64,000 nucleotides of DNA from a virus: IMG/VR virus record IMGVR_UViG_3300035492_000206; one strand, given 5' to 3'. The notes beneath the pieces were generated by a model that saw only the letters and a program-made list of their open reading frames with translations, did no database searches and was not told the DNA's origin. Positions within the stretch are counted from its first letter, which is position 1. Every line of letters begins with the position of its first letter. The position numbers and the translations under genes were made by a program. This document shows, piece after piece, positions 17,362 to 45,312 of the stretch.

Positions 17362-17362
17362 T

Positions 17363-18128: not shown

Positions 18129-18130
18129 CA

Positions 18131-18170
18131 GGAAAAGGGCCGGTTTTCCGGTCGCGTAGCCCCGTAACAT
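18131..18170 (+). promoter_or_regulatory. Putative phage late promoter for the darA operon
   Basis: GGAAA at 18131, TAACAT at 18165 (offset 34 rather than 35). Confidence 0.55.
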
Positions 18171-18203
18171 TGGCCTTAACAATCCAACCGTGTTGAGGCC
18201 AAT

Positions 18204-21200
18204 ATGAAACACTCCGTCGCCTGGACCGAGCAGAACGAGCCTATCGGCCTGTCGCTCGATCAGCTCCTCTATCGTATGCGCCGCCATGACAGCCAGGATG
18301 GCCTGCTGTTTGACAGCGTTACCCTGAACGAAATCCTGCAGGAAGAAGGCGTCGAGCAGTTCGCCTTTGACGCCCTGGTATCCCCGTTTTCAAAGCTCAA
18401 GCGCAAGATGGATATCCTGTCGCGCACCATGGACCGCGCCATTGATGGCTATGGCGTGATCGCCATGCAGGTATCCGATCCGTTCAAGCGCAACGGCGTG
18501 GCTCAGGTTGCCGCCGTGTTCGAGCTGGCCGATGGTCAGACCGTGAGCGTTTACTTCCATAATCCGGACAACACCCCCGGCAAGTTGGCCCCTACTGATG
18601 AAATGATCAGCTGGAAGTGGCTGCTGAACAAGAAAGATATCACCATCGTGGTAGCCCCCGAGCGAGGCAATGACCTGCAGATTCGCGAAGTAGCACGCCG
18701 CATCATGAAGTTGGCGCAGAAGAACAGCGCTGCTTTTGCCAAGGCCAATGCCAAGCGCGCCGAACGTCTGGAGATGATCGAAGGCCTGCGCACTGAGATC
18801 AGCGATCTGGAATACGAACTGTCGGACCTGCAAGACCAGATTGAGGTTGCCAAGGTTGAGGCTGAAAGTCGCGCCATGGCCCCGTACAAGGCGGTCAAAG
18901 CGGCTGGCATGGCTGCACTGAATAGCTTCCGCAAGTTCCTGAGTCGCAGCCAGTACCGCGCCATGGTGGAAGCCATTGAGGGTGAAGAAGGTGCCGGTAT
19001 GGCTGACCGTGCCAAAGCGCTTGCGGCCATTATCGAAGGTATGGCGGCCACCTATGATCAGGACGGCAAGGGCGATAATGCCACCGTCTACCTGCATTAC
19101 TTCCAGAACAGTGCCGACTGGTTCATTACTGAAAAGGACGCTCAGGGCGGCACTCAGCAGGCCTTCGGCTATGCCGATATGGGGCAAGGCGGCGAGCTGG
19201 GTTATATCAGCATCGATGAGCTGACCAAAAACGGCGTCGAGCTGGACCTGTACTTTGATCCCAAGCCGCTCAAGGCGGTTAAGCCGTCCAGTGCCGGTAC
19301 CGATGAAGCCGAGGCCGACCTTGCGAAGGCGCATGCCGAGCTGGATGGACGCATCGATGCCCTGTCTGATGATGAAGCGCAGCGCATGGCGCAAGCTCTG
19401 GAGCTGAAGGTTGGTGCCGGTAAGGATTCGCGCGACGTGATCAAGCAGCAGCATCCTGACGATCAGCGTCGCGGGCTTGAGTTGATCGCCTCCCAGTCTG
19501 AGGCAAGCGAATCGACCGATCCCACAACCCCAGAAGGTTACGCCGCCATCATGGACGACGAGGCAGCACTGACCGCCGTTCAGGACCAGCTCGACAGCCA
19601 CTTCCAGGCGCGCATGATCGAGGTCCGCAACGCCCTGCGCGAACTGGGCTGGGAAGGCGAGCGCTTCAAAACCCTGTCGAAGAATGGCGTAGAGGCGGTA
19701 TTCGACCTGATTCAAGTGGGTGCCGGTGCCAATGTGGCCGGTATGACCATCAACGGCATCCGTGACGACCTGAGCAAAACCCCGGCAGAGTTGGCGGCTG
19801 AAGTGGATGCGCTGGCCGAGCCGGTGATCGAAATCGCCAAGTCCTACCGGAACTATGTCGACGATGCCGATGGTGATCTGTTCGAGGCGGCCAAGGCCTT
19901 TTTCAAGGCTGAGCTACAGGGCAAGGTCGTCAAGACAGTGATCGGCGATGTGCATATGACTGGTGGCGGCTTCAGGGAGATGAAGCGCGGCATGAAGTCG
20001 GATGAACTCAAGGCAAGATTGCTTCCCAGCGTGCCGGATATTCTTTCATCCGGCCGATACGACGGTCGCAGCGAGCTTCATAAGCCGCGCAACGATGGTT
20101 ATGTGGCGTTTCACTTCTTTGAGAAAGAAGTGGAGCTGGATGCCTTGATCGTAACCGCCGGGGTAAACGTCGGCGAGCGCAATGACAAGGCTCTCACCTA
20201 CACGGCATACGGTCTCGGATACGAAGGCGGAATTGGCTGGAAAAACAAAGCCGCATCCGGCGGTGTGCTCGATGCGGCTTCGTTCCGCGGGAAGGTGTTC
20301 CGAGGTCCAGGGGTGCCTAGTGAGCCAACAACCAAGCCCGGATCGACTTCCTTCCCCTTGCTCACTATGGATTCCAGTGTAGGTGCTAATGATGAAATTC
20401 TCAACCTCGTGATCCTTAAAGTGGTAGACAAGACCACAGGCGAAGAGCTGACTGAGTATGAGGATGCGCAGGAAGTCGAGCCCATAGAGTCCGACGGTAT
20501 CGAAGAAGTGCTCGATGAGCCTACAGCCGAACAGGTGCTTATCAACGACTTCTATCAAGCGATTCAGGATGAAACTGCTCACATAGAGTCTGCGATTGCA
20601 GGAATTGACTGGGATGCAATCACGGACGTGGAGACCGGCAACGAGCAGGCCGGGGCGCTACGTGATGCCGTAAAAGGGTATCAGCCTGTTGCCAAGGCGC
20701 TGGAGCAACTGGGCGCAAACGGCATCAATGACGGTAATGCGAGTCTGGCCAAGGTATTCGATTCCGATGCCTATCAGGCCAGGGATGAAGCAATGCTCAA
20801 GCTTCGCGAAACAGTCGACAGCATTCACGATCTGGGCAAAGACCGGCTGCGCAAGGCTGGCGAGGCTGAACTCGCATCATTGCCGGAAGACGCATCTCTG
20901 GAGGACGTAGCCAAAGCAATATTCCGCAAGCATGGCATTGACCTGGGTGAAGCTACGAGCGGTCGTGCGGCAGCCATAGTCGAAGGAATAGAAGAAAAGA
21001 ATGCTGAAATGCTCAGGGGCGTTCTGCTGGCAGGGAATAACCCTGCAAGCAACGAGATTTTCGAATATGCGACAGGCATCAAGCTTGCCAAAACCCAGAA
21101 GCAGCGCGGGGTTCAAATTGACGACTGGGCAGGGATCAGCGAGCAACAGCGTGCAGATATCGAAGCAGCGAAGGTCGCTGACAGGGAGGCTGAAGAGCTT

Positions 21201-22286
21201 GCCCGTGAGGTGTCGTCCGCGTGGGATGAGCTTGGGCGAAGCAGCGTGCGCAGCGAGCAGGGCATTCAGGACGGGCAACGTTATCTGATGGGGTTTGTGG
21301 ATGCAGGCGTGCGCGAAATCGGCACAGCGAAGAAGGGCGCAGCAACTGTATACGGCCTGCGCAACAACGATGGTTTGATCTCTGTAAGCGGCAAGAGCTT
21401 CAACCGCTTCCTGAAGGCGGCTACGGCTTACGGCGGCTTGATGCCTGCGCTTGAGCTGGTTGGTGCAGTAGCGACCAAAAGCCAGGAAGAAGAGGTGGCT
21501 CAGGGTGTGGGTGCTGAGGCGGTAAGCGATCCTGAGCAGGCACTGCAACAGGCGCGCGAACAAACCGATAGAGATCCAACCGATGAGCAGAAGGTAAGCG
21601 GCGACTACCAGAAGGGAGAGCTGAACGCCTTTGGCTTGACCCTGGCAATTGAAAATCCAAAGGGGCATGTCCGATCCGGCAAGAATGAAGGCGGGGACGA
21701 ATGGCAGGTAAGCATGGCGCACGACTATGGCTACATCAAGGGAACCAAAGGCCTGGACGGTGACGAAGTGGATGCTTTTATCGGCCCCAATCTCGAAAGC
21801 GAGAAGGTTTTTGTGATCGAGCAGGTGGATTCGGCGGGGGTGCTTGATGAGCACAAGGTAATGCTTGGGTTTGATGACGAAGAGAGCGCAAAACAGGGAT
21901 ACCTGTCCAGCTACAAAGCAGGCTGGGATGGTCTCGGTGCTATTCGCGAAATGAGCCTTACTGAGCTGAAAGAATGGCTGCCGACTGCCGGCGGGAAATC
22001 CATGCCTTCGCTTGAGCCTGAGCCAGCAGCTGAGCCAGAACCGGTAGAGCCTGAAGCGATGACTGAGCCTGATCAGCAAGCGGTGGAGCCCGAAAAGCAA
22101 GCTGATACCGACTACCTGCAGTCCATCATCGATCAGACCATTGCCGATCCGCTGGCGTCCGATATCGCCGATAAGCTGGGCGAAATCTTCGGTCGCAACG
22201 CCGGTGATGCCGAAATGGAAACCCTGATCGAACAGGCCGCTATGGCCTATCAAAATGCCGTCATGCAGGCCACTGCCAACCTCTAA
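18204..22286 (+). CDS. darA: DarA-family polyvalent internal head protein (DarA_N, DUF2958-like, LPD3-like, inorganic-pyrophosphatase-like, DarA_C)
   Basis: DarA_N: VFELADGQTVSVYFHNPD...MISWKWLLNKKDITIVVAPE. DUF2958-like: DWFITE..QAFGYADMG.GGELGYISIDEL..VELDLYF (~19040-19280). LPD3-like ~19880-20240. iPPase-like: IENPKG..RSG..HDYGYIKGT.G.DGDEVD..DEHKVMLGF (~21585-21980). DarA_C: DTDYLQSII... Confidence 0.85.
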   Translation: MKHSVAWTEQNEPIGLSLDQLLYRMRRHDSQDGLLFDSVTLNEILQEEGVEQFAFDALVSPFSKLKRKMDILSRTMDRAIDGYGVIAMQVSDPFKRNGVAQVAAVFELADGQTVSVYFHNPDNTPGKLAPTDEMISWKWLLNKKDITIVVAPERGNDLQIREVARRIMKLAQKNSAAFAKANAKRAERLEMIEGLRTEISDLEYELSDLQDQIEVAKVEAESRAMAPYKAVKAAGMAALNSFRKFLSRSQYRAMVEAIEGEEGAGMADRAKALAAIIEGMAATYDQDGKGDNATVYLHYFQNSADWFITEKDAQGGTQQAFGYADMGQGGELGYISIDELTKNGVELDLYFDPKPLKAVKPSSAGTDEAEADLAKAHAELDGRIDALSDDEAQRMAQALELKVGAGKDSRDVIKQQHPDDQRRGLELIASQSEASESTDPTTPEGYAAIMDDEAALTAVQDQLDSHFQARMIEVRNALRELGWEGERFKTLSKNGVEAVFDLIQVGAGANVAGMTINGIRDDLSKTPAELAAEVDALAEPVIEIAKSYRNYVDDADGDLFEAAKAFFKAELQGKVVKTVIGDVHMTGGGFREMKRGMKSDELKARLLPSVPDILSSGRYDGRSELHKPRNDGYVAFHFFEKEVELDALIVTAGVNVGERNDKALTYTAYGLGYEGGIGWKNKAASGGVLDAASFRGKVFRGPGVPSEPTTKPGSTSFPLLTMDSSVGANDEILNLVILKVVDKTTGEELTEYEDAQEVEPIESDGIEEVLDEPTAEQVLINDFYQAIQDETAHIESAIAGIDWDAITDVETGNEQAGALRDAVKGYQPVAKALEQLGANGINDGNASLAKVFDSDAYQARDEAMLKLRETVDSIHDLGKDRLRKAGEAELASLPEDASLEDVAKAIFRKHGIDLGEATSGRAAAIVEGIEEKNAEMLRGVLLAGNNPASNEIFEYATGIKLAKTQKQRGVQIDDWAGISEQQRADIEAAKVADREAEELAREVSSAWDELGRSSVRSEQGIQDGQRYLMGFVDAGVREIGTAKKGAATVYGLRNNDGLISVSGKSFNRFLKAATAYGGLMPALELVGAVATKSQEEEVAQGVGAEAVSDPEQALQQAREQTDRDPTDEQKVSGDYQKGELNAFGLTLAIENPKGHVRSGKNEGGDEWQVSMAHDYGYIKGTKGLDGDEVDAFIGPNLESEKVFVIEQVDSAGVLDEHKVMLGFDDEESAKQGYLSSYKAGWDGLGAIREMSLTELKEWLPTAGGKSMPSLEPEPAAEPEPVEPEAMTEPDQQAVEPEKQADTDYLQSIIDQTIADPLASDIADKLGEIFGRNAGDAEMETLIEQAAMAYQNAVMQATANL
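20241..20280 (-). terminator. Minus-strand intrinsic terminator inside darA
   Basis: Perfect 10-bp inverted repeat AAGCCGCATC (20248-20257) / GATGCGGCTT (20271-20280), followed on the minus strand by TGTTTTT. Confidence 0.7.
20241..20369 (-). ncRNA. Predicted ~130 nt antisense RNA inside darA
   Basis: Minus-strand promoter at 20376-20404, 8-bp 5' hairpin (20318-20325 with 20360-20367), and an intrinsic terminator at 20241-20280. The ends are predicted. Confidence 0.55.
20376..20404 (-). promoter_or_regulatory. Minus-strand sigma70 promoter inside darA
   Basis: TTGAGA (20404-20399), 17 nt spacer, TACACT (20381-20376). Confidence 0.65.
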
Positions 22287-22292
22287 GGACGA

Positions 22293-23999
22293 ATGATGAA
22301 TCTTTTTTTCGATGCTACCGAAAGTAGCAAAGCTAAATCGACGCTTGCCAGGCTCCGCCTGGTCGGCGCTTTGGCCAAGGTACGCAAAGATATCCTGGCG
22401 CTGGGTGCGGGGGCTGGCAATATTGTCCAGCGCCTGCAACTGGCCAAAGAAGCCTTGAGCCTGCGTGAGCAGCTGGGCGAGCTTGATGCACCCAACGATG
22501 TTGAATCAGATAATGAACCCGACCGGGAAGCCATTCTGGGCGTATTCAGGCAGCTTGGGCGTGACTACCCAGATCGTAGTATGTCTGTTGCAGGGAATTT
22601 GGCGGGCAGCGTGGTGGCGCTGATCCGTGAGGCAGTAGGGCGCGAGGTCATGCCAGAGGAGCTGAGGCAACTGGTCAGCATGGAGGATCGACGCGCCGCC
22701 TATCGAGAAGGCCAGCGGTCTGTCGACCCTGTCGCAAGCGCCGTTGTTGCCATGCACGATGTGATTGAGGCACAGGCTGATGTCCCTGCTGCTGTCGTGC
22801 GCGACGATATCGGAGCGGTTGACTTTATCTGGGGCGAAGAGGGCAAGGAGCCGACTGCATCCGGTAAGCGCAAAGGTGCCAAGGGTGTGGCGCATATCCT
22901 TGAGGCACGAATGCGCAAGGATGGCCTGAGCCTGGAGGAGGCTGCCGCTGTGGCAGAGGAAGTGGCAAAAGTGGTCGCTACAGGCGAGATTACACTAACC
23001 CATCACCATCAAGATGTGAGCCAAGCTACCATTACAGACGGCAAGTACTCTGCAATCATGGTGAAGCGGGAAGGTAGTAATGCATGGCTGCTGACAGGGT
23101 GGGAAGAAAATAAGGATTCCGATGCCACTGGCAAGGGGGATGACAAAACCAGCGCTACGCACTCCGGGCCTACACCTGCCCGTCCCGGAGAGGGAGCGGA
23201 ACCCTCTGATATCAATATAGCACAATCTCAGGATGAAGGTCAGCCGACCGATGAAGGCAGTGCGTCTACAATAGCTGCCCACGGCCTCGCACTGGAGGTG
23301 CCGGCCATTGATCAGCAGCTGATAGATGATTACAACCGCACGACTCATGTATTTGGTGGCCGCGACTTCAATGCAGAACTCCGCAGCGAAGCGGAAAGCC
23401 TTTTGAATGAACTGGTCGAGCGAAACCACACGCTGGATACCCCGGAGCAGCAGGCACTGGCCAAAGAGCTGATCGAATCCTACCTGCAGGCCCAAGCGGA
23501 GTTCGCGCAGTGGAATGCGCGCTTCAGCACCAGTAACCCATCTTGGATTGTGACTGGCCGCAGTGGTCGCGACATGGGCAAGTACAATCGCGCCAATGAG
23601 CGGCACATGGATGAATACACCCGGCGCGTTGACCAGTTGCAGGCCCAGCGTGACCGCATAGGCGAAACGCTCTACAAGATGCGCCCCCAAGAGGTTCAGG
23701 TAGAACAAGCACTGGGCTCGGACTTGCGCGGCATTACCCAACAGGCCGGGCATATTCTGGGTTATTTGGAGGAGGGTAAAGCCGCGCTGGTTGCGGAAAC
23801 CCGCAAATGGGCCGCACCTAAAGCGCACAAGTTGATCGAGCGCAGCCTGACTGTCGACCGTAACCGCACCCTTGAGCATATCCGCGAGCTGGAAAACTCC
23901 AAGTCCGTACAGGATGCCGGTGGTTTGGCCAAGGTGTTCGGCCCTCGCTCAAAGGCAGGCAAGCTGGTGGAGACGCTTCTGAGTGAGCCTGACTCTTGA
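22293..23999 (+). CDS. Second polyvalent head-targeted protein with a BECR/barnase-colicin-like (PBECR) nuclease domain
   Basis: N-terminal LARLRLVGAL...RLQLAKEALSLREQLG leader. DIGAVDFIWG..KGVAHILEAR..SAIMVKREGSNAWLLTGW domain (~22780-23110). SWIVTGRSG..KYNRANERH segment typical of polyvalent proteins. Confidence 0.65.
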   Translation: MMNLFFDATESSKAKSTLARLRLVGALAKVRKDILALGAGAGNIVQRLQLAKEALSLREQLGELDAPNDVESDNEPDREAILGVFRQLGRDYPDRSMSVAGNLAGSVVALIREAVGREVMPEELRQLVSMEDRRAAYREGQRSVDPVASAVVAMHDVIEAQADVPAAVVRDDIGAVDFIWGEEGKEPTASGKRKGAKGVAHILEARMRKDGLSLEEAAAVAEEVAKVVATGEITLTHHHQDVSQATITDGKYSAIMVKREGSNAWLLTGWEENKDSDATGKGDDKTSATHSGPTPARPGEGAEPSDINIAQSQDEGQPTDEGSASTIAAHGLALEVPAIDQQLIDDYNRTTHVFGGRDFNAELRSEAESLLNELVERNHTLDTPEQQALAKELIESYLQAQAEFAQWNARFSTSNPSWIVTGRSGRDMGKYNRANERHMDEYTRRVDQLQAQRDRIGETLYKMRPQEVQVEQALGSDLRGITQQAGHILGYLEEGKAALVAETRKWAAPKAHKLIERSLTVDRNRTLEHIRELENSKSVQDAGGLAKVFGPRSKAGKLVETLLSEPDS

Positions 24000-24013
24000 T
24001 GATGCTAAAGGTA

Positions 24014-24045
24014 TCGAGTGACAGGCATGGTGTCCTGTCACTCGA
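24014..24045. terminator. 12-bp perfect hairpin between convergent genes
   Basis: TCGAGTGACAGG (24014-24025) / CCTGTCACTCGA (24034-24045). No T-tract on either side. Confidence 0.55.
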
Positions 24046-24061
24046 CCGGCTATAGGCGGGA

Positions 24062-27052
24062 TCAGAGTCTTACGCTTTTGGCGCGCCCAAAGCACTCATC
24101 AATCACGAATGTGACACCATCCTGGTCTCGCAGCGATATCTCCATGCTTGCGTGCTCATCCAGACCCATTTCTGCTGCAATCCTTGGCAGCTGATCAAGC
24201 GAAGGCGACAGCATATCCCAGCAGCCGACTTTGTCGTTGGGGCGAATCTCAACATCTTCCGTTACGTGCCATTCTGCCCAATCTCGCGCCAATCCCGATT
24301 CATTCAAGGCAGGTGAATGGATCTCGAAATACAGGTTCTGATGCCGGTCATACCGGGCGCGAAATCGCACTGTTGGTTGAGGATCGTGCCGAAGATTGAA
24401 ATCGATATAGTGACGACGCGTCAGCCATGCAAGTGCTGTCTTCGATGGGGCGCACCCTGTAATAACCTGCGCTTCAGCTTCAGCCAGCATGCGTTTGGCT
24501 TGATTCTGATCATCCTGCGCCAAAGCGCACATTGCACCATTGTGACCGAACACAAGCGTAGGCGTTATAACAAGTCCTGCCGCCTGCCAGCCGCTGGCAC
24601 CGGCTAGTAGTGCGGCCATTGATTGATCGTTGTGAGTGTATATATTCGCATTGCCCGGATACCTGAAGCAGTCAGCACACCCCTTCAATGATCGAAGATT
24701 ACGATCAAGGATGGCGATATTGGGTGCCTGGACATGCAGGCGTCGATGTCGATTGACGCGCCCCGCGATCTGCACAATGGATGCCGTTGAGGACGGCTCA
24801 ATCACAGACCAGTCAAAATCATGATCGCGACCGACTTCTTCCACTGGCGTAGCCACAACTACAAAGACCAGATCTTCTTCCGGAGCCTGTCGGATCATAT
24901 GATCAAGCTCTGCATCCTGAAAGATGTGTTCGTTCCCTCGCTTGCGGTTAAAAAGCCTGTCCAGTGCGCTTTCCTTCACCCATCGGCGCAACCGGAAATC
25001 CTCAGAATGGTAAGCCGACACCCGGTAGCCTGGCTCGCTCTGCAGCCGGGTAGCTATCTCTACGCAAGGTTCGATGTTGGCAACCCGGACAACGCCGAAA
25101 GAGACGCGCTTACCTGATGGGTGCAACCATGCATGATTGTGGTGCAGTTGTTGTATTGCGGCGCTGATCGAGTGTTGAAATCTATCAATTGGCGTTTCGC
25201 CTTCAGCAACGGTCTGTATGTACGCCAAGCGATAACAGGGTTCCTGGTGTAGGTGGTCGGCAAGCCCATCAAGCCACTGCGCAATGATTGGCTCAATCTC
25301 ATCCGAAGCCCCTGTATGGCTTGAGGGTGACTGGTAGTTGTCTACCAGTGTGATATGGCAGCCTACATGCGAGTGGTGATTGATGGCGCCATGCATGTGC
25401 GCACCGGCCTCAAATGCACGCACCACTGCAGCAGCACATCCCTGCGTGAGTGTCGCGCTGGAGACGATGACGTTACACCCAAGCAGGGCCGCCATTTCAA
25501 TCAGTCGCATCACCGCACCTAGGGATTGAGGGCTGTAATTATCAATTTCATCAAGAATCAAATCACTGCCTGCCACGCGCAGAGCCGCCGTTACATGATG
25601 GCCCTGGCGACCGGGGTTACCCGCATCAATCAGGTAGTCGAGTGTGGATACCAAAAGCGGGGTCCCGAGCAGGGCGCACGTTTTTTCTTCTGAACGGCAG
25701 CCGCCGTAGGTTTCAGCCCATTCACGCACCCACTTTGGGCAAGCAGGATCCACGTTGCCACCAATCTCCCAGATCGCGCGCCCATCAGCCGTGTCGGTTT
25801 CATCCTCATCCTCGTCCACAGCGCCAAGCTTTGCACGCGTGGTGTCGTGTGCCGCCTTCAGAAAGGCATCCCCCATTACGGTTGCTACTTGCTGCCTGGG
25901 CAGGCCAAGGTCTGCGCAAATCGCTTCACCCGTTTGCAGCGTAAGCGAGCGCAAGTTCAGGCCAATAGATATGCGTAACGGCGCTTCTGGTGCTGTCATT
26001 GCATCGGCTATCATCAGGTTGGCGCGCGTCTTCCCCGTGCCGGTGGACGCTGCGTTCAGTACAAGGCGGGGAGTGTTTCGCTGTTCGGGATGCTCATATT
26101 GCGAACGGATATGGTTGACCGCGTCCCGCTGCCAGGCAAAGCGAGATTCAGTACTGTCGCCATGTAGGCGTGCGCGCGCAGCGGTCGAAAGACCTGCAAG
26201 CCCTTCAATTTTGGCCAGCTTTTCTACCCAGCTGGCGGCTTCCTGACCAACGTGCTCAAGATGCCAGTCCAGCGGCTGATCAAGTTTACGCCCGACCCCG
26301 TTATTATTCGGTTTGGTGTTGGCATACAGGCGGTCACTCATGCTATCCACGATTAAGTCACCAGCCATTGAGCGGCTGGACACCTGATGATCTGCGGCAA
26401 TCAGAGCCATTCGGACTATCATGCCCAAACCCTTCCAGTAAGGCGCTTGCTGGTGTTCTTGCGCGGGCAGGTCCGCATCAATACGCTGAAGCACATCCCA
26501 GAGCGCGCTTTCAAGGCTTTCAGGGAAGCCCTGCGTATCGGACGGCATTTGCTTAAACGCATCGACTGGCTGATCGATGAATGGCCTGACATGCGTCTCC
26601 GCCATGGGAATGACCGATCTGTCTTTGTGGCTTGATCGCGCCGTTGGCCCCAACAAGCCGTGGTGTGTCATTACAGCAAAATCGACAACATCGTCAGCCT
26701 TGCATACGGGCGCGACAACAGTCTGCTTAATCATCCGATGGCCCTGCTGCAGGGGCTGCATAAATGCAGGTAGCCGCTCTATGCCATCATCCGCCATTAC
26801 GTGCCAAGCATCCTTCAATGTGGGCGGCGGGGCGGCATTGCCTGCATCGGCACTTTTCTGCCAGGCGCGCATCATGCCTCGCCATGTTTCCAGTACCCGC
26901 ACCGAGATCCACTCATGCCGGATTCGGTCACCACTCAATGCAGACTGCTGTCCACGCAGCTTTTCTTGGAAATGCACAGTGGCTTTCCCAATGTCATGGC
27001 TCAAGCCTGCCGCGCGAGCCAGGAGTGAGGCGAGGTTGGCCCAGCTATTCAT
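24062..27052 (-). CDS. cas3: Type I-F Cas3 HD-nuclease/helicase lacking the N-terminal Cas2 domain
   Basis: LSHDIGKA at residues 17-24, THHG, AADHQVS, ASTGTGKTRAN, LILDEIDNY, SSATL, VVATPVEEVGRDHDFDW and QIAGRVNRHR. Confidence 0.93.
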   Translation of the reverse strand: MNSWANLASLLARAAGLSHDIGKATVHFQEKLRGQQSALSGDRIRHEWISVRVLETWRGMMRAWQKSADAGNAAPPPTLKDAWHVMADDGIERLPAFMQPLQQGHRMIKQTVVAPVCKADDVVDFAVMTHHGLLGPTARSSHKDRSVIPMAETHVRPFIDQPVDAFKQMPSDTQGFPESLESALWDVLQRIDADLPAQEHQQAPYWKGLGMIVRMALIAADHQVSSRSMAGDLIVDSMSDRLYANTKPNNNGVGRKLDQPLDWHLEHVGQEAASWVEKLAKIEGLAGLSTAARARLHGDSTESRFAWQRDAVNHIRSQYEHPEQRNTPRLVLNAASTGTGKTRANLMIADAMTAPEAPLRISIGLNLRSLTLQTGEAICADLGLPRQQVATVMGDAFLKAAHDTTRAKLGAVDEDEDETDTADGRAIWEIGGNVDPACPKWVREWAETYGGCRSEEKTCALLGTPLLVSTLDYLIDAGNPGRQGHHVTAALRVAGSDLILDEIDNYSPQSLGAVMRLIEMAALLGCNVIVSSATLTQGCAAAVVRAFEAGAHMHGAINHHSHVGCHITLVDNYQSPSSHTGASDEIEPIIAQWLDGLADHLHQEPCYRLAYIQTVAEGETPIDRFQHSISAAIQQLHHNHAWLHPSGKRVSFGVVRVANIEPCVEIATRLQSEPGYRVSAYHSEDFRLRRWVKESALDRLFNRKRGNEHIFQDAELDHMIRQAPEEDLVFVVVATPVEEVGRDHDFDWSVIEPSSTASIVQIAGRVNRHRRLHVQAPNIAILDRNLRSLKGCADCFRYPGNANIYTHNDQSMAALLAGASGWQAAGLVITPTLVFGHNGAMCALAQDDQNQAKRMLAEAEAQVITGCAPSKTALAWLTRRHYIDFNLRHDPQPTVRFRARYDRHQNLYFEIHSPALNESGLARDWAEWHVTEDVEIRPNDKVGCWDMLSPSLDQLPRIAAEMGLDEHASMEISLRDQDGVTFVIDECFGRAKSVRL

Positions 27053-27942
27053 GACGTTATGGCCTCCATGCTCACAGCCACCGGATCAATGCAGTCAGAT
27101 GTGACCGCTTTGGGTTGCAGGTGGCGCTGCCGAAAATGGAATAGCGACGCATCATCCAACAGGATGCGGTTCTGGCTATCCAGGCCAAGCTCGCGGCGGG
27201 CAGCCAGTGACTGGTCAGGCGTCATCTTGGGGTTCAGTGAGACGACATACCAGCGGCCCGTCGCACGGCCAATGCCTGAATCTTTGATTGCGTCAATCTG
27301 CAGCTGAATGCTTGGCGTGATCGAGAGGGGGCGAAGTTCGAGCATGCGGAAAAGAACAAATTGCTTTAGAGGGGCGGTTAGTACGTCTTGAGCATCAAAT
27401 TCATCAAAGTCATACCCGGTTACTAGCAGTTGATCAGCAATGCGATGCAATGCGACCGGGTAGATGCATCGCCACCGCGCCTGATCATTCTTTTTCCTGC
27501 CTACATAGCGCACCGAGAAGGCTTTTTTGTGCACCATTGCGTGAAGCAGGGGGGTGTAATCGACCTCATCAGGGAGGCGCTGCGCCCGAATCTTGCCGTA
27601 CTGAACGCTGAGGCTTCCCACAACGCCTGGCGCATCATCAATATCAAGCCCAGCCTGCAGCCGTGTGATGGGGCTAAACAGGATCTCATTCAGGATGGAG
27701 TTGGCGCTGTTCGGGTCTCGTGTATCCAGGGCGACATAACTATGGGGCCGGTAGCAGCGTTTGTCCTGATAAATCAAGTTGCTGTAGGCCGAGCACATCT
27801 GATTGAGAAGGCGATACTTCGTTGCAGCCGAGCCCTCACTGATGCCGTCCAGATCACTTCGGCGGAACTGACCGGTGTGGATTGTCCGGCGCAAAACGTA
27901 GCGTTCGATCATGTCCTGTTGGTAGATAGTTGCAGATGACAA
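27049..27942 (-). CDS. WYL-domain transcriptional regulator (BrxR/CapW-like)
   Basis: LLHAMVHKKAFSVRYVG...RCIYPVALH...LLVTGYD...QFVLFRM is the WYL core. SLNPKMTPDQ..ARRELGL is a CapW-like C-terminus. TTG start with GAGGAG SD. ATGA-coupled to cas3. Confidence 0.75.
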   Translation of the reverse strand: MSSATIYQQDMIERYVLRRTIHTGQFRRSDLDGISEGSAATKYRLLNQMCSAYSNLIYQDKRCYRPHSYVALDTRDPNSANSILNEILFSPITRLQAGLDIDDAPGVVGSLSVQYGKIRAQRLPDEVDYTPLLHAMVHKKAFSVRYVGRKKNDQARWRCIYPVALHRIADQLLVTGYDFDEFDAQDVLTAPLKQFVLFRMLELRPLSITPSIQLQIDAIKDSGIGRATGRWYVVSLNPKMTPDQSLAARRELGLDSQNRILLDDASLFHFRQRHLQPKAVTSDCIDPVAVSMEAITS

Positions 27943-28017
27943 GTTCCAATCTCCTCAAAAAGATAATTCACTTAAAACCATAGAGTTAAATATATATCAA
28001 AATGAAAAATAAAAGAA

Positions 28018-28046
28018 TTGCCACAGGATGAAAATAACTCTAGTCT
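28018..28046 (+). promoter_or_regulatory. Putative sigma70 promoter of the csy operon in the AT-rich divergent spacer
   Basis: TTGCCA (28018-28023), 17 nt spacer, TAGTCT (28041-28046). Confidence 0.55.
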
Positions 28047-28111
28047 AGTGCTCATCGAACAAGCAACGGGAGGATGGCGCGGAGTCATGGACACCAGCGC
28101 CGGGCAAAAGA

Positions 28112-29239
28112 ATGAAAAACTCAGAGCAGCAAAGCGCGCTATCCAACTGGATACTGGACAACCTGGTGCATTTCTCGAACAAGCTCACAAACTCAAACGC
28201 ACCGGGGGGCGGTATTCGGCTGTCAGGCATACAGGCCCTTGACCTGCCTTACGTGAGTGCACGAACGCACCTGCACGACATCAACCGTAAAGCGACCGGG
28301 GCACTTATTGAGCTGGATTACGTAAAGCCCACAAATATCCGGATGAAGGATGTTCGGGTATGCCTGGGCGAGGAAGTCATCAACCCGCCAGAGCTTGATC
28401 TTGCTAAGGATCAGATGAGCGAAGTTGCCGGTGTGTACTTGGATGCAGCATCAGGCCGGCATCCCTGCAAAGTTGCCGACCCGAAGGCACAGACTTTGTC
28501 GCGGCTGAAGCAGATTCTATTGCCACTACCTGAGGATGAGGCTTATTTGGCGGTAAGCCCGCTCAGTGCAGCAGGCATGGCAAAGCTGCTCAATGACACC
28601 TACGCCGCGCGCTTCGACCAGAGCGAGCAGGGCGACAATGGAAAAGGCTTGATCCCCAGGGTGCGTTCATTTCCCTATGGCGGAGACAAGCCGCAGAACG
28701 TGGGCTCTCGCGTCAATGAAGGCTTGAGCCGTCCATTCGTGTTTGATCGCGTGCCCCGTGAAAATGATGACCTGAAATACGCGCATCGCCTGTTTTATCG
28801 TGGCCTAACCTTGCGACTGCCTAAAGCGCTAATCATGGACTACAAGTCATTCCTCGACAGCGTGCGCAGAGAAGGGCGCGACTTGAAGGTATGGCCTGCC
28901 TCGCTCAAGCGTGCAGAGCGTGCCTATCTGCAGCCTCTATGGGGGAGCTGGGAGAATCAGGCCAGAAAGGCTAGGCGCGTACTGGAAGAACACGCAGCTT
29001 CACTGCCGGATTCAAATCCCGCATGGCATGGCGAGACCGAAGAAGCCCGGTTTCAGGCTGGGTGGTTGATGCCTTCAGCGCGAGGGCATGAGTGGAAGAA
29101 ACAAGCAGCTCGCCGATTTGCCAGCCTGCTTTCAGCCAGTCGTGTCGCTGCCGGGCGTGACGGCGAGTCTGGACGGATCGCGTTGAGCCCTACCGATCAG
29201 CACCGCGTTGCCAGTGCAGTCCTGGAGGGCTTCAGATGA
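28112..29239 (+). CDS. csy1: Cas8f (Csy1), divergent
   Basis: KQILLPLPEDEAYLAVSPLSAAG and YGGDKPQNVG motifs. First gene of the csy operon. Confidence 0.82.
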   Translation: MKNSEQQSALSNWILDNLVHFSNKLTNSNAPGGGIRLSGIQALDLPYVSARTHLHDINRKATGALIELDYVKPTNIRMKDVRVCLGEEVINPPELDLAKDQMSEVAGVYLDAASGRHPCKVADPKAQTLSRLKQILLPLPEDEAYLAVSPLSAAGMAKLLNDTYAARFDQSEQGDNGKGLIPRVRSFPYGGDKPQNVGSRVNEGLSRPFVFDRVPRENDDLKYAHRLFYRGLTLRLPKALIMDYKSFLDSVRREGRDLKVWPASLKRAERAYLQPLWGSWENQARKARRVLEEHAASLPDSNPAWHGETEEARFQAGWLMPSARGHEWKKQAARRFASLLSASRVAAGRDGESGRIALSPTDQHRVASAVLEGFR

Positions 29240-30120
29240 ACAAGCGTTATCTATTGCTTCCACGACTGGATGTGCAGCGCGCAAACGCAATGGTGACTGC
29301 GGGTGTGATCTCACTATGTCCTGTCATGCCAGCAGTGCTCATGGGCGAGGCTTTCGGACATGCAACAGGTGCGTTCCCAGAAGGGGTGATGCTTGTCCAC
29401 CATGACGCTTACCTGCTGGCTGATCAAAGCCTTGACCAAGCCCGACCGGGTGGCACTGAGTACTATCCGCATCAATTCCGGGGCGCGACAGCGTTCAACG
29501 GTAAAGATATAGCGGGTGGTGACAAGAAAACACCATCCAACTCGATCCAGCCAACGGCCAGCATGAATGGCACCTGGTCAGTGATCATGTCATTCGACGC
29601 AGATCAGATTGATGCCGACAGTCTGCTGTCAGCCGCAACGCAATTTCTTGGACGTATGGCACGGCTTGCCGGTGGCGTGATTACACACTTTGAAAAGCCT
29701 CAGGTGCAAGATGATCTGGCGGGTATTCTTGCTGCATGCCGAAGTGGTTTTGTGGCTATCGACCGGTCGCCTTGGCTGGTATCGGACACACAGACGCGCA
29801 TCGAGCGTTTGCTGGCGCACACCGATGGAAGCGTTCAGCCCGAGCATCAGGGAAGGCGTCGCTGGCTGGTCCCGGCTGCTCTGGGGTATGCCCTGCTAAC
29901 AGATCCTGTCGATACGGCTGGCGCGCGTAATGGCTTGCCCCATGCGTTCGCAGAAGTGCTCCTGGGGTTGGTGGAGCTGGTCAGCATCCGGCAAACATCC
30001 GCTTTCCCCACGCAAAACGAAACACAGGATATAACACTGATTGAATCATGCTTTTGGCGGCAAAACTGGCCAACACAAGACGTTTTTTTATTGAATCAAG
30101 AGGAGCCCAGCAATGGCTAA
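29236..30120 (+). CDS. csy2: Cas5f (Csy2)
   Basis: LLLPRLDVQRANA, RLAGGVI, WLVPAALGYALL, RNGLPHAFAE.LLGLVE. Confidence 0.88.
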   Translation: MNKRYLLLPRLDVQRANAMVTAGVISLCPVMPAVLMGEAFGHATGAFPEGVMLVHHDAYLLADQSLDQARPGGTEYYPHQFRGATAFNGKDIAGGDKKTPSNSIQPTASMNGTWSVIMSFDADQIDADSLLSAATQFLGRMARLAGGVITHFEKPQVQDDLAGILAACRSGFVAIDRSPWLVSDTQTRIERLLAHTDGSVQPEHQGRRRWLVPAALGYALLTDPVDTAGARNGLPHAFAEVLLGLVELVSIRQTSAFPTQNETQDITLIESCFWRQNWPTQDVFLLNQEEPSNG

Positions 30121-31186
30121 AGTAATGGCAAAACTACCCGGTGTAACCAGCTTCACCCGTCGCAGTGTGATCAGCGATGGCGCATTTTACAGTCTTGTTG
30201 ACGGGGTTGAAGTACCCCTGCCGGTTGTGCGTCACGGAATTCGTGGCACTCAGAACATCAATAACACAAAGGAGCGCGAACCCTCGCAGATCCAGGTAAC
30301 TGAAACAGCGCGCACAGAAGTGAATGCCGACGCCTTCCTGGTGCGGTTCAATCTGCGCTTTCTGCCGCTACAAGAAGGCTTGCACGCGTGTGCGGTCAAT
30401 AAGCAGACCGACAAGGCGTTAACAGAGGCGCTGCGGGCGCAATACGAGGCATTCGTGAGCGCTGCCCGCAACAGTGATGGCTTGGCTGAGGTGTCTCTTC
30501 GCACCGCGCGGAATATCCTCAATGGTCGCTGGCTCTGGCGCAACCGTAGCCTGGGCGAAGCAATCGAGATCAGCGCCAGTACGCAGGACAAGCGCATAAA
30601 CATAGACGGGTTTGATGCGCTTGAGCTGCCGCTGAATGCCTTTGGCGATTACACCCGTGAAGAGCAGCAGCTGGGTGACTACATTCAGCACATGCTTCAG
30701 GGCGAAGCCACTGGCGGCATGACGATTGAAGCGCGCGTAAGCCTTGGGTTCACGGGATCGGTCGAAGTATTCCCCTCGCAGAACTATGTGTCCAAAAAGC
30801 CCAAAGGCTTTGCCCGGCCACTGTATAAGCTGGGAGTGGCCGACAAGTCGCGCACGTTTACTACCGCTGATGACATGCTGGATTACAGTGATATTCGGCG
30901 CATAGGGCAGGCTGCACTGCGTGACCAGAAGATTGGCAATGCGCTGCGCACCATTGATACCTGGTATCCAGACGCGCAGGCGCATGGCTATCGCCCGATT
31001 CCGGTTGAGCCAGAAGGTGCAAACTTGGACTCAATGTCCATGCTGCGCAAGCACAAAGGCGCAAACAGCCCGTCTGCATTTGCACTGGCAACGCGCATGG
31101 CCGAGCTTGACCCAAACAGCGCAGACGGCATGTTCCTGATCGCTGCCTTGATGCGTGGCGGCGTATATGGCGAAGCAGGCGAATAA
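30113..31186 (+). CDS. csy3: Cas7f (Csy3)
   Basis: VRHGIRGTQN, NILNGRWLWRN, EVFPSQ and QKIGNALRTIDTWY. Confidence 0.95.
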   Translation: MAKVMAKLPGVTSFTRRSVISDGAFYSLVDGVEVPLPVVRHGIRGTQNINNTKEREPSQIQVTETARTEVNADAFLVRFNLRFLPLQEGLHACAVNKQTDKALTEALRAQYEAFVSAARNSDGLAEVSLRTARNILNGRWLWRNRSLGEAIEISASTQDKRINIDGFDALELPLNAFGDYTREEQQLGDYIQHMLQGEATGGMTIEARVSLGFTGSVEVFPSQNYVSKKPKGFARPLYKLGVADKSRTFTTADDMLDYSDIRRIGQAALRDQKIGNALRTIDTWYPDAQAHGYRPIPVEPEGANLDSMSMLRKHKGANSPSAFALATRMAELDPNSADGMFLIAALMRGGVYGEAGE

Positions 31187-31216
31187 TGAGGCCCTTGAAA
31201 AGAACGGAGGAAGCCG

Positions 31217-31810
31217 GTGCCCAGCTGGCGTCGGCGACACATGATGAAGCACTACATGGATATTCGATTGATACCTTCCGCAGGCATGACGCCCCCAACA
31301 CTGGCGGCAGAGGTGGTCAAGAAAGTACATGCATGCCTTCAGGTACACCCTGGTGCCATCGCGCTCGCACTGCCTGAGTGCGCAGCCGGACCGGATCGCA
31401 AGATCGGCACGCTGGTCAGGTTATTTGCCACGGACGCAAGTCACTTGAATGCGACTGCAGACGAAATTGAGGCACATAAGGCAATCAGTGGCATGGCGGT
31501 TCCAACGCGTATCCGCGAAGTACCCGCCGAGACTACACGGTGGGTAGCATACACGCGTTTCAGGCTGCCAAATCGACGCCGACAGGCCAAAGACACCGAT
31601 GCCTTTGCAGTCAGGCGGCAGCAGCTACGCGCCGAGCGCATGGCGGTCATCGACACACTGCCCACGCTGTATATGTCATCTGCCACCAATGGGCATCGCT
31701 ATGGCATGGGTATTCAGGTGGTGGAGTGCGACCATGCGTCACCACAGGGCACTCTTAATGGTTACGGACTATCCAGTCAATCAAGCCCGTTCTGGCTACC
31801 GATGGTATGA
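31217..31810 (+). CDS. cas6f: Cas6f (Csy4) crRNA endonuclease
   Basis: HYMDIRL...VKKVH (catalytic His), Arg-rich helix, LYMSSATNGHRY and C-terminal GTLNGYGLS. Start is GTG 31217 or ATG 31241. Confidence 0.9.
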   Translation: MPSWRRRHMMKHYMDIRLIPSAGMTPPTLAAEVVKKVHACLQVHPGAIALALPECAAGPDRKIGTLVRLFATDASHLNATADEIEAHKAISGMAVPTRIREVPAETTRWVAYTRFRLPNRRRQAKDTDAFAVRRQQLRAERMAVIDTLPTLYMSSATNGHRYGMGIQVVECDHASPQGTLNGYGLSSQSSPFWLPMV

Positions 31811-31944
31811 CGTACCCAAAAAAAACGACCAAGGTGCAACTCAATGATATCAGTGCGTTTTTTCAGGGTGTGTTTTTTATGGGTAAATTGGCGGGAGGAC
31901 CGATTGCGCTTGTGTAATCACGGCCTTATAGTGAAATCGCTGTA
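31811..31944 (+). promoter_or_regulatory. CRISPR leader with its own sigma70 promoter
   Basis: A and T tracts as in I-F leaders. TTGCGC (31904-31909), 17 nt spacer, TATAGT (31927-31932), ending 12 nt before repeat 1. Confidence 0.7.
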
Positions 31945-32452
31945 CTTCACCGCCGTGTAGGCGGCTTAGAAATCGAAACCATGCGTCTGCGATCTCCTGC
32001 CGGTCTTCACCGCCGTGTAGGCGGCTTAGAAACCTGTCTGGCACCTTCTCGCTTGATTCAGCCCCTTCACCGCCGTGTAGGCGGCTTAGAAATGAGATGG
32101 GACACCCTCAAGGCGGGGCCTTACCTTCACCGCCGTGTAGGCGGCTTAGAAAATACGCGCCTGCGTCTCTGCGGCTTGCTCCAGCTTCACCGCCGTGTAG
32201 GCGGCTTAGAAAGTTCCAGCGTGGTTTCATCAAGCCGGACGTTCCTTCACCGCCGTGTAGGCGGCTTAGAAAAGCATCGATTTAGCACCGCTTCTTGCGG
32301 CATCCTTAACCGCCGTGTAGGCGGTTTAGAAATCGCAGAGCGCACGCAGGCTGTTGAGGCTTGCTTTCACCGCCGCGTAGGCGGTTTAGAAAAACGAGAA
32401 GGCCGAAGTGGGTATCAACCTGCACTTCACCGCCGCATAGGCGGATTACTTG
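31945..32452 (+). CRISPR. Type I-F CRISPR array: 9 repeats (28 bp, CTTCACCGCCGTGTAGGCGGCTTAGAAA) and 8 spacers of 32 bp
   Basis: Exact 60-bp period, repeats starting at 31945, 32005 ... 32425. Repeats 1-6 are identical and 7-9 progressively degenerate. CCGCC-GTGTA-GGCGG hairpin typical of Cas6f substrates. Confidence 0.98.
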
Positions 32453-32709
32453 CAGGTAGTTGAATGCAGGTCATGACTGGCCTGCATAGCCTGCCAGCTC
32501 TCGGGGGTTGTACCGGTCATGGCGGCAATGCTGCCCGCCAATCCGACATCGCACGGCACGTTACCGCCAATGAATGCTTGCAGGAGTGCAGCATCAACAG
32601 CCATCTGCCGGGATGCTTCGGTCAAGCTCAAGCCCAGCGGGTCGAGTACGTCAGCCTTGAGCGCAATGCCAGGATGAACCGGCTTGCGGGTACGAATGCG
32701 ATTATTCAT
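32446..32709 (-). CDS. higA: HigA-family HTH antitoxin (orphan)
   Basis: PVHPGIALKADVLDPLGLSLTEASRQM...GTTPESWQAMQASHDL is the HigA signature. Confidence 0.85.
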   Translation of the reverse strand: MNNRIRTRKPVHPGIALKADVLDPLGLSLTEASRQMAVDAALLQAFIGGNVPCDVGLAGSIAAMTGTTPESWQAMQASHDLHSTTCK

Positions 32710-32912
32710 ATTTCGAGATCCTTGAATAGCGCGTTGGCACTGTCAAACCGCTTCCCTATGCCGGATTCCAGCTCATCCATCGCGCAAACGGTGATTGCGG
32801 CTGGAGTCTGCGGAGTATCGGCTGAGAATGACCGGGACGGCTGGCGTTCACCACGGTGAATTTCGTCCATCCGCTGCACGCTTTCCATCAGGTCATCAAA
32901 AAAACGGCTCAT
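32706..32912 (-). CDS. Chimeric antitoxin-like peptide (HTH-antitoxin-type N-terminus, RelB/DinJ-type C-terminus)
   Basis: MSRFFDDLMESVQRMDEIHRGERQPSR joined to PAAITVCAMDELESGIGKRFDSANALFKDLEI. ATG at 32912, ATGA-coupled to higA. Confidence 0.55.
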   Translation of the reverse strand: MSRFFDDLMESVQRMDEIHRGERQPSRSFSADTPQTPAAITVCAMDELESGIGKRFDSANALFKDLEI

Positions 32913-32946
32913 GGCAGTTAGCTCTTTTGCGATCGTATGAAGCCAT

Positions 32947-32975
32947 AGTGTATGCACCAGGCGAGAAACAGGCAA
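32947..32975 (-). promoter_or_regulatory. Sigma70 promoter of the antitoxin pair
   Basis: TTGCCT (32975-32970), 17 nt spacer, TACACT (32952-32947). Confidence 0.65.
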
Positions 32976-33011
32976 TGGGACGATTTGCACCCCTGATCTG
33001 GTTTGTTAACC

Positions 33012-33059: not shown

Positions 33060-34601
33060 ATGGCTACCAAATCCAAAACGCAGCGACGCGGCATATTCTC
33101 CTCTCTGTTCGGCGGCAATACCAAAGCTTACACAGACGAGACAGCGTCAGCGAGCGACATTAAACAGTCGGATACCACCCTATACGGCGCGGGCATGACC
33201 ACGGTCGCCAGTTTGATGGCGTCCGGAAATCGCAAGGCTCGCACCCGTCAAGCCATCTATGACCAATGGTCGATGATGGAGGCGAACCCGATTGTATCCA
33301 CGTCCGTTCAACTGCTGGTGACAGCTGCGCTGGGCGGGCATGAGACCAACGGTAGCCTGGTGTTCATCGAGGAGCGGCCCGGATTCAACGACGATCAGAA
33401 AATGTCGGATTTGGTGCGTGAAGTGCGGGACGACCTTTCCGATCTGTTCAATGCAGTGGCGTTTCAGGTGGCGTATCTTGGGGCTAACTTTGGCGATGCC
33501 TACGCGCGCGTTTACAGCGAAGACAAAAAGGGTGTTGTCGACCTGTACGTGGGTGAAATGATCCGTCCGCCGCTGGTGCAGCCATTCGAGCGCGGCTCCC
33601 GCACGGTGGGCTTTGCGGTCTACACCGGTGAGAAGAACTTTCAGCGCCTCGATAAAACCCAGATGGTGCGCATGAAGATGCCGCGCACGCAATGGATTCC
33701 CCAGCACGGCGTGGTCGAAAAGTCGCTGAAACTTGCGCTTGAAGAGGACAATATCGACAACCTGCCGCTTATGCCCGCCATGGCCGGCGGTTCGCTGCTT
33801 TATGCTGCCGAAGAGCCCTATAACAACCTGGTGTCGAGCCTGCTGGGGCTGGTGGGCCAGCGCTGGATGGACTCCATCGATGAGCAGATGCTTACTGTCA
33901 ACCTGAATGACATGAGCAAGGCGCACCAGAAAAAGTTCATCGAATCGATCACGGCAATGCTCAAGCGCTCGAAAGAAGTGGCTGAGGATGCGGTTAAGGG
34001 TGGACGCCCAATCCTGGAGCGCATTCGGCACGTCATCCCTGTGTTCGGTGACAAGCAGCTCACGACTATTCAGGCGCCCAACGGTGGCCAACCGGGCCGC
34101 GCGGCCAATATCGGCATCGAAGACATCATGCTGCATGCGCGATTGCTGGCCGGTGCGCTGGGTGTCGATCTATCCATGGTCGGCTTTGCTGATCAGATGA
34201 GCGGCGGCTTGGGGGAGGGCGGCTTCTTCCGTACCAGTGCCCAAGTGGCTGAGCGCGCGCGCGTCATCCGCGTAGCCCTGTCCGAATTCTTCAATCACGT
34301 CATCGACATTCACACGCTGAAGAAATACGGCGTTGTGATCCCTGCATCCGAGCGGCCTTGGCAGATCAATTTCTTCGGCTCCATATCGGCGCTTGAGGCC
34401 GAGAAGCAGCGCACCCGCTCCGAAGGCATGAGTGTGGGCTTGATGCTGATTCAGGCCATTCAGCAGCTCAAGGATATGGGTGTCAGTGAGGAGATGGCAG
34501 CCAACTACCTGACTGACCTGATGCAGCTGGATGAAGAGCAGGCCAAGCTGTATGCAAAAACCGTTGCGGCACCGAAGGATGACGATGATGGGTATGTTTG
34601 A
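33060..34601 (+). CDS. Portal protein, P1 Prt-like
   Basis: GIEDIMLHARLLAGALGVDLSMVGFADQMSGGLGEGGFFRT matches the P1 Prt motif as I recall it. ATG at 33060. Confidence 0.85.
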   Translation: MATKSKTQRRGIFSSLFGGNTKAYTDETASASDIKQSDTTLYGAGMTTVASLMASGNRKARTRQAIYDQWSMMEANPIVSTSVQLLVTAALGGHETNGSLVFIEERPGFNDDQKMSDLVREVRDDLSDLFNAVAFQVAYLGANFGDAYARVYSEDKKGVVDLYVGEMIRPPLVQPFERGSRTVGFAVYTGEKNFQRLDKTQMVRMKMPRTQWIPQHGVVEKSLKLALEEDNIDNLPLMPAMAGGSLLYAAEEPYNNLVSSLLGLVGQRWMDSIDEQMLTVNLNDMSKAHQKKFIESITAMLKRSKEVAEDAVKGGRPILERIRHVIPVFGDKQLTTIQAPNGGQPGRAANIGIEDIMLHARLLAGALGVDLSMVGFADQMSGGLGEGGFFRTSAQVAERARVIRVALSEFFNHVIDIHTLKKYGVVIPASERPWQINFFGSISALEAEKQRTRSEGMSVGLMLIQAIQQLKDMGVSEEMAANYLTDLMQLDEEQAKLYAKTVAAPKDDDDGYV

Positions 34602-45236: not shown

Positions 45237-45258
45237 TCTTAGCGCTTTGCGCTTTGCT

Positions 45259-45280: not shown

Positions 45281-45312
45281 TATGCTTTTCAAACTTGCAG
45301 TAAGGGCATCCA

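What the first reader, a model, noticed from the sequence alone, without database searches (positions are those of the whole stretch)
27049..28111. WYL regulator coupled to cas3 and divergent from the Cascade operon
Seen: WYL and cas3 form one leftward operon and csy1-3/cas6f a rightward one, separated by 169 bp of AT-rich DNA containing TTGCCA-N17-TAGTCT. The WYL gene occupies the slot cas1 normally holds. Known: BrxR and CapW WYL proteins are ligand-responsive repressors of BREX and CBASS. Inference: a sensor of invading nucleic acid that switches the phage CRISPR on only during superinfection.
Basis: partly seen in the sequence, partly recalled or inferred. Interest (0 to 1): 0.68.

Follow-up and report, generated by a model that had tools for sequence, protein, structure and literature searches.

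The report
Inherited regulator of phage CRISPR system
A bacterial virus carries a stripped-down CRISPR immune system aimed at its own relatives, together with an on/off-switch protein of a known defence-regulator type that came with the system from bacteria; the switch has a clear predicted binding site but has lost part of the pocket its relatives use to sense damaged DNA.

Summary
The anatomy is right. A 297-aa wHTH-WYL-WCX gene overlaps a Cas2-less cas3 by 4 nt and faces csy1-3/cas6f across 169 bp. Its profile and model match CapW/BrxR best, and it models as a homodimer.

Two inferences fail or weaken. First, WYL did not replace cas1 and is not phage-specific. The head-to-head layout is a widespread bacterial type I-F lineage: 31 of 74 such loci carry this WYL family, 18 with cas1 (placed after cas6f) and Cas2 intact. 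The phage lost cas1/cas2 later. Second, ssDNA sensing is uncertain: only one of four CapW ssDNA residues is kept, and a 10-member clade including this protein has lost the allosteric Trp. Known homologues also respond to DNA damage and prophage induction, so 'only during superinfection' is unsupported.

The cassette sits where related P1-like phages carry darB, and its oldest spacer targets their darB with a CC PAM. The scan noted WYL-cas3 pairs on other DNA, but I found no note of this type I-F layout. Verdict: a new variant of a known kind.

The parts
27049..27942 (-). wHTH-WYL-WCX transcription factor, CapW/BrxR-like, 297 aa (wHTH about 1-70, WYL about 130-205, WCX about 228-297); WYL Trp replaced by Leu172
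24062..27052 (-). cas3 of type I-F without the N-terminal Cas2 domain; HD, Walker A/B and helicase motif VI intact; 4-nt overlap with the WYL stop
   Evidence: (Cas3f profile matched from position 102 of 979)
27943..28111 (.). 169-bp bidirectional control region
27991..28011 (.). 21-bp imperfect palindrome (9-3-9, 7 of 9 arm pairs), predicted operator; best-conserved block of the gap in relatives
28018..28046 (+). candidate sigma70 promoter of the csy operon (TTGCCA-N17-TAGTCT), 6 nt right of the palindrome
   Evidence: sub-threshold alone, position conserved in L002
28112..29239 (+). csy1/cas8f (375 aa; about 37-aa internal deletion against relatives)
29236..30120 (+). csy2/cas5f
30113..31186 (+). 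csy3/cas7f
31217..31810 (+). cas6f; relatives carry cas1 directly after this gene, here absent
31904..31932 (+). candidate promoter of the array in the leader (TTGCGC-N17-TATAGT); both hexamers conserved in the otherwise different leader of sister phage L001
   Evidence: 8/12, not listed by the scanner
31945..32452 (+). CRISPR array: nine 28-nt type I-F repeats (last degenerate), eight 32-nt spacers
32393..32424 (+). spacer 8 (oldest): matches darB-like genes of related phages, up to 31/32, with 5'-CC PAM

Best explanation
The gene encodes a homodimeric CapW/BrxR-like transcription factor that is a dedicated, inherited part of a head-to-head type I-F CRISPR lineage. The dimer's two wHTH domains bind the 21-bp palindrome at 27991-28011. 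There it blocks the leftward promoter (its own gene plus the coupled cas3) and probably damps the csy promoter whose -35 lies 6 nt away. This keeps the Cas3 nuclease low in the lysogen while the array is transcribed from its own leader promoter. The most likely release signal is ssDNA of any origin: an invader being degraded by Cascade-Cas3 or restriction enzymes (positive feedback), DNA damage or prophage induction. That step is only about even odds in this clade. A P1-related temperate phage took up the cassette in place of darB, lost cas1 and Cas2 afterwards, and uses it against related phages. Shown: gene anatomy, family, conserved palindrome, phylogenetic order of loss, one spacer target. 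Modelled: dimer. Inferred: binding, repression, promoter positions, ligand.
For: Profile of 52 homologues hits CapW 9C5G at 2e-19, other CapW/BrxR at 1e-14 to 4e-10, PafBC lower. Model pLDDT 90; Foldseek top 11 all CapW/BrxR. VIA Z 8.7-9.7 over 224-247 residues, rmsd 12-15 A, which I attribute to domain placement in the monomer model. Homodimer score 0.67 vs best control 0.00; the mark was reached by 20 of 30 true homodimers and 1 of 23 monomers; contact agreement at least 68%, pLDDT at least 77; may be a pass by likeness to solved CapW. Palindrome: leave-one-out motif score 60.0 vs 42.4-53.2 in 30 shuffles, with the closest relative removed; a matrix built without the window ranks 27991 first to third of about 64,000 positions. 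CapW operators are 19-24-bp imperfect palindromes (PMC9122588), in E. coli in a bidirectional promoter (PMC11662680). 31 of 74 divergent loci vs 0 of 28 co-directional loci carry this WYL; WYL and Cas3 trees agree around the window. Y146, R158 and K/R193 are kept in 37 of 37, R199 and F/Y195 in 36 of 37. darB synteny and PAM-bearing targets.
Against: CapW S144, R164, W165, R168 map to G148, Q171, L172, T175; only R184/R199 is kept. The Trp is present in 24 of 27 outer family members and 0 of 10 in the window's clade. No clear sigma70 promoter for the leftward operon. The palindrome does not overlap the csy -10 as CapW sites do; its centre is near -52, an activator-like position (PMC12392091). 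The palindrome is weak in the more distant clade members L011 and L012 (2 and 4 of 9 pairs). No expression data could be obtained.
Confidence: 0.62

Rival explanations
1. Ligand-blind (or differently tuned) autorepressor: this clade has lost ssDNA-coupled allostery and the protein only sets a fixed Cas3 dose, or lets the cassette be expressed on entry into a new cell before repressor builds up. It shares binding and repression with the best explanation and differs only in the signal.
For: Clade-wide loss of the Trp that transmits the ssDNA signal in CapW and of the following Arg. R199 contacts E251 of the partner chain in the dimer model, so its conservation may be structural.
Against: Y146, R158, K193, F195 and R199 stay near-invariant in both clades. 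DriD senses ssDNA with a degenerate NYL motif (PMC10853764), and DdaA responds to DNA damage despite an Arg-to-Ala change (PMC12392091).
Confidence: 0.3
2. Dual switch: the dimer represses its own operon but activates the csy promoter, like the activators DriD or DdaA.
For: The palindrome centre (28001) is about 52 bp upstream of the predicted csy start; DdaA sites lie about 50 bp upstream of start sites and DdaA activates Acinetobacter type I-F cas genes. The csy promoter is weak (8/12).
Against: Sequence profile and Foldseek rank the repressors CapW/BrxR well above PafBC/DriD; VIA separates them less clearly (PafBC Z 8.6 over 154 residues). The transcription start is only predicted.
Confidence: 0.15
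3. One reading: a phage-evolved sensor in cas1's place that turns CRISPR on only during superinfection.
For: The carrier is a temperate phage (integrase), and spacers target related phages.
Against: WYL coexists with cas1 and Cas2 in 18 loci, many from bacterial genomes (Acidithiobacillus, Nitrospirae, Rhodocyclaceae). Characterised homologues respond to DNA damage and prophage induction.
Confidence: 0.07
4. Protein-level accessory of Cas3 (as WYL1 is for Cas13d), made in step with Cas3 through translational coupling and perhaps standing in for the lost Cas2.
For: Tight overlap with cas3 is conserved in close relatives.
Against: Intact wHTH plus a conserved palindrome; present equally in loci that keep Cas2.
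Confidence: 0.05

Closest known systems
CapW (CBASS; PDB 9C5G, 7TB5, 7TB6; PMC9122588, PMC11662680)
   Same: Full-length wHTH-linker-WYL-WCX of about 300 aa; predicted homodimer; about 21-bp imperfect palindrome in a bidirectional promoter of a defence operon; R184 equivalent kept.
   Different: 14-19% identity; RWHVR reads QLLVT; S144, R164, W165, R168 not kept; controls a CRISPR-Cas3 locus; site lies upstream of the effector -35 rather than over the -10.
BrxR (BREX; PDB 7QFZ, 7T8K; PMC9122601, PMC13622015)
   Same: Same fold; first gene of a defence operon; BrxR homologues are already reported near CRISPR-Cas (21 of 210 associated systems).
   Different: 13-15% identity; separate family with a YVG...RWR..P and LNP.LT.DQ signature; no NCBIfam or PADLOC model hits it.
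DdaA of Moraxellaceae (PMC12392091) and Sll7009 of Synechocystis type I-D (as cited in PMC9122601)
   Same: WYL transcription factors shown to control CRISPR-Cas expression; DdaA acts on a type I-F system.
   Different: DdaA is a global activator acting in trans, near DriD; Sll7009 is type I-D. Here a dedicated gene in cis, coupled to cas3.
Head-to-head type I-F as in Acinetobacter baylyi (probably the I-Fa of PMC4224351; that name match is my inference)
   Same: cas2/3 divergent from csy1-csy2-csy3-cas6f-cas1 (L028).
   Different: Moraxellaceae loci lack this WYL gene; the window's locus lacks cas1 and Cas2 and lies in a phage.
Phage-encoded type I-F of Vibrio phage ICP1 (own knowledge; PMC10161043 seen by title and abstract only)
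   Same: A phage using type I-F Cascade-Cas3 against rival mobile elements.
   Different: ICP1 is lytic, keeps cas1 and cas2-3, and I know of no WYL regulator there.

Membership tests
CapW/BrxR repressors | wHTH-WYL-WCX architecture over the whole chain | tested here: met
CapW/BrxR repressors | homodimer | tested here: inconclusive
   model passes, 0.67 vs best control 0.00 (20 of 30 homodimers, 1 of 23 monomers reach the mark), possibly by likeness to solved CapW
CapW/BrxR repressors | about 20-bp palindrome in the adjacent promoter | tested here: met
   27991-28011; (sequence only; binding not tested)
CapW/BrxR repressors | RWHVR motif and ssDNA contacts S144, R164, R168, R184 | tested here: not met
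   QLLVT; G148, Q171, T175, R199. Hence 'works like', not filed as CapW/BrxR proper
CapW/BrxR repressors | repression relieved by ssDNA | not testable with these tools
   needs binding and reporter assays
Type I-F1 CRISPR-Cas | separate cas8f, cas5f, cas7f, cas6f | tested here: met
Type I-F1 CRISPR-Cas | Cas3 with intact HD and helicase motifs | tested here: met
Type I-F1 CRISPR-Cas | Cas2 fused to Cas3 | tested here: not met
   about 100 N-terminal residues missing
Type I-F1 CRISPR-Cas | cas1 in the locus | tested here: not met
   no cas1 hit in 15001-42000; 134 nt between cas6f and the array
Type I-F1 CRISPR-Cas | 28-nt hairpin repeats, 32-nt spacers, 5'-CC PAM | tested here: met
Regulatory mini-array (CreR type) in the cas3-csy1 gap | degenerate repeat pair in the gap | tested here: not met
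   no repeat-like match reached the top-eight list (16 or more of 28) inside 27943-28111

The most novel reading that the evidence does not exclude
An undescribed WYL clade dedicated to head-to-head type I-F systems has dropped the Trp-based ssDNA allostery of CapW/BrxR and senses another cue, or throttles Cas3 separately from Cascade. A P1-like phage uses this regulated, adaptation-less system in place of its darB anti-restriction gene to attack darB-carrying kin.
Probability: 0.2. Interest if true: 0.7.

Novelty: new variant of a known kind. Interest (0 to 1): 0.45.

Why it matters
WYL control of defence systems, CRISPR included, is known, so the core idea is not new. What is added is a compact, testable unit: a dedicated regulator family of one type I-F lineage that I could not find described in the papers searched, a predicted operator, and a natural split into Trp-bearing (27) and Trp-less (10) members. 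That split tests directly the published proposal that all WYL repressors sense ssDNA through the RWHVR motif (PMC11662680). It also shows a phage keeping the regulator while discarding cas1 and cas2, and trading darB for a system that targets darB.

Tried and rejected
The promoter scanner found nothing above threshold in the gap, the leader or after cas3. Exact 20-23-nt scans of viral contigs gave no target for spacers 1, 2 and 4; the spacer 5 hit is 24/32 without PAM and was rejected as chance. Spacers 3, 6, 7 were compared only with loci already held. No self-targeting spacer: best 24/32, no PAM. The first motif control used fewer starts than the real run and was redone fairly. Even widths (20, 22) scored lower than 21. 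'WYL replaces cas1' rejected. Caveat: a few of the 31 WYL loci were fetched through WYL itself, and loci are related, so 31/74 vs 0/28 is not an independent-sample test. A WYL-Cas3 complex was not modelled (single job used on the homodimer).
Full report
OBSERVATION. The coordinates are right. The WYL ORF runs 27049-27942 on the minus strand (297 aa, TTG start) and its stop overlaps the cas3 start by 4 nt. csy1, csy2, csy3 and cas6f run rightward from 28112 to 31810, followed by nine 28-nt repeats with eight 32-nt spacers at 31945-32452. The 169-bp gap is GC 0.40 overall and 0.23 in its left part. It is below the scanner's threshold, but relative L002 has TTTACA-N17-TAACCT at the same distance from a conserved palindrome, so it is a fair candidate for the csy promoter. 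Cas3 lacks the Cas2 domain but keeps its catalytic motifs. No cas1 was found in 15001-42000.

THE PROTEIN. The Pfam WYL hit is weak. An exhaustive search gave 62 homologues. Their profile matches CapW from end to end (9C5G, 2e-19), then other CapW and BrxR chains, with PafBC lower. The model is confident (pLDDT 90) and its best structural matches are CapW and BrxR. Two copies fold as a dimer with score 0.67 against 0.00 for the best control; 20 of 30 true homodimers and 1 of 23 monomers reached that mark, and the pass may reflect likeness to solved CapW. So it works like a CapW/BrxR transcription factor. It fails one family feature. CapW binds ssDNA through S144, R164, R168 and R184 and passes the signal through the Trp of RWHVR (PMC11662680). 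These map to G148, Q171, T175, R199 and L172. In 37 CRISPR-linked homologues Y146, R158 and K/R193 are invariant and F/Y195 and R199 nearly so; the Trp is present in 24 of 27 outer members and in none of the 10 members of the window's clade (support 100/100). Degenerate motifs do not rule out sensing: DriD has NYL and DdaA lacks one Arg. I put ssDNA release at about even odds.

THE OPERATOR. The best candidate is a 9-3-9 imperfect palindrome at 27991-28011. It is the best-conserved block of the gap in L002 and L014 and recurs with 7-8 of 9 arm pairs in L002, L014, L007 and L107, with symmetrical changes in L007. A palindromic motif search without the closest relative scored 60.0 against 42.4-53.2 for 30 shuffles, and matrices built without the window rank this site first to third in the 64 kb. 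CapW sites are 19-24 bp (PMC9122588). The site ends 6 nt before the csy -35 and 48 nt before the WYL start. A leftward -35-like hexamer falls in one arm in the window, L002 and L014, but its -10 is poor in the window, so that promoter is only inferred. The centre lies near -52 of the predicted csy start, the kind of position DdaA uses to activate; this keeps a repress-left, activate-right rival alive. The array has its own promoter-like element at 31904-31932, whose two hexamers are conserved in the different leader of a sister phage, so crRNA supply is probably outside WYL control (inference).

NOT A CAS1 REPLACEMENT. Every WYL homologue I looked up in context sits in front of cas3, and faces csy1 wherever the contig reaches that far. 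A survey seeded with Cas3 in viral, genome and metagenome collections, annotated with local profiles, gave 116 non-redundant Cas3 loci. Of these, 74 are head-to-head and 31 of those carry this WYL family; none of 28 co-directional loci does. Eighteen of the 31 have both cas1 and Cas2, with cas1 placed after cas6f, and many come from bacterial genomes. The window's Cas3 and WYL both group with L002 (a related phage, Cas2-less), then L003/L014 (cas1 and Cas2 present), then L007/L008 (both present). The regulator is therefore older than the loss of cas1 and cas2, and older than the move into this phage.

THE CARRIER AND ITS TARGETS. The window is a temperate myovirus: terminase, sheath, baseplate, integrase, RecET, DarA-like proteins, and a portal related to Xanthomonas phage Rb1 (61%) and P1 (28%). 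In provirus L197 the order is DarA-like gene, darB, portal. In the window it is DarA-like gene, a PBECR1 gene whose first 66 residues resemble the DarB N-terminus, the CRISPR cassette, portal; darB is absent from the window. Spacer 8, the oldest and shared with sister phage L001, matches darB-like genes in 12 other viral contigs, up to 31/32, all with a 5'-CC PAM. The search pattern allowed wobble positions, and the PAM coincides with an Ala codon, so the 12 are not independent. L001 has ten spacers, five with a different repeat and leader. One matches the portal of L197 (29/32, CC PAM), while its own and the window's portal carry CG and a seed mismatch. The arrays thus turn over without their own cas1 and are aimed at kin. 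Immunity against related phages is a fair function for the system.

MECHANISM. Most likely (0.62) the dimer sits on the palindrome and holds its own operon, hence Cas3, and probably Cascade at a basal level. If the pocket still works, ssDNA from an invader under attack, from DNA damage or from prophage induction lifts repression. BrxR is released by restricted infection (PMC13622015), which for a Cas3 system would give positive feedback (inference). CapW responds strongly to DNA damage and prophage induction and slowly to lytic infection. Neither precedent gives 'only during superinfection'.

NOVELTY. WYL regulators near CRISPR-Cas are reported: 21 of 210 BrxR-linked systems, WYL or HTH genes near type I-F loci (PMC12887000), DdaA on Acinetobacter I-F, and 13,508 defence-associated WYL proteins, mostly in uncharacterised clusters. 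My paper searches did not show this cas3-coupled family, its operator, the Trp-less clade or the darB swap; the library lacks most subscription papers. I rate it a new variant of a known kind, interest 0.45.

Noticed in passing
window 22293-33000 vs L197:1561-10233: The CRISPR cassette and a PBECR1 gene occupy the position of darB in related phages; the first 66 aa of the 22293 protein resemble the DarB N-terminus (48%), possibly a retained capsid-packaging signal. The oldest spacer targets darB of kin.
   Followed up: yes
L001:1000-1900 (sister phage array): Ten spacers; the five leader-proximal units have a different repeat and a different leader and cas6f 3' end, suggesting capture of an array piece from another type I-F locus by recombination.
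   Followed up: partly
window 33192-33223: Portal sequence matches spacer 5 of sister phage L001 at 31/32 but has CG instead of the CC PAM and a seed mismatch, as does L001's own portal; relative L197 has the CC PAM. Looks like self-escape.
   Followed up: yes
window 44184-47299: Diversity-generating retroelement: tail-protein target (44184-45236), Avd (45313-45795), 118-nt repeat pair (45110-45227 / 45838-45955, 88%), reverse transcriptase (46073-47299).
   Followed up: no
window 16885-23999: DarA-like cluster: DarA_N protein, a 1360-aa polyvalent protein (DarA_N, LPD3, InPase) and a PBECR1 nuclease-domain protein; the 1360-aa gene is mosaic between sister phages.
   Followed up: partly
window 28074-28115: A 13-codon ORF ends overlapping the csy1 start (ATGA); L002 has a 4-codon ORF with the same overlap. 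Probably incidental.
   Followed up: no
window 28112-29239: Csy1 lacks about 37 residues (a predicted coiled insert) present in four relatives.
   Followed up: partly
L089:3231-18187 (Photobacterium lutimaris): A WYL-bearing, Cas2-less head-to-head I-F locus lies directly beside a second, canonical cas1-cas2/3-csy locus.
   Followed up: no
L028, L029, L031, L040, L045, L048-L052 (Moraxellaceae): Head-to-head I-F loci without this WYL gene, in the family where DdaA is reported to control cas genes in trans.
   Followed up: no
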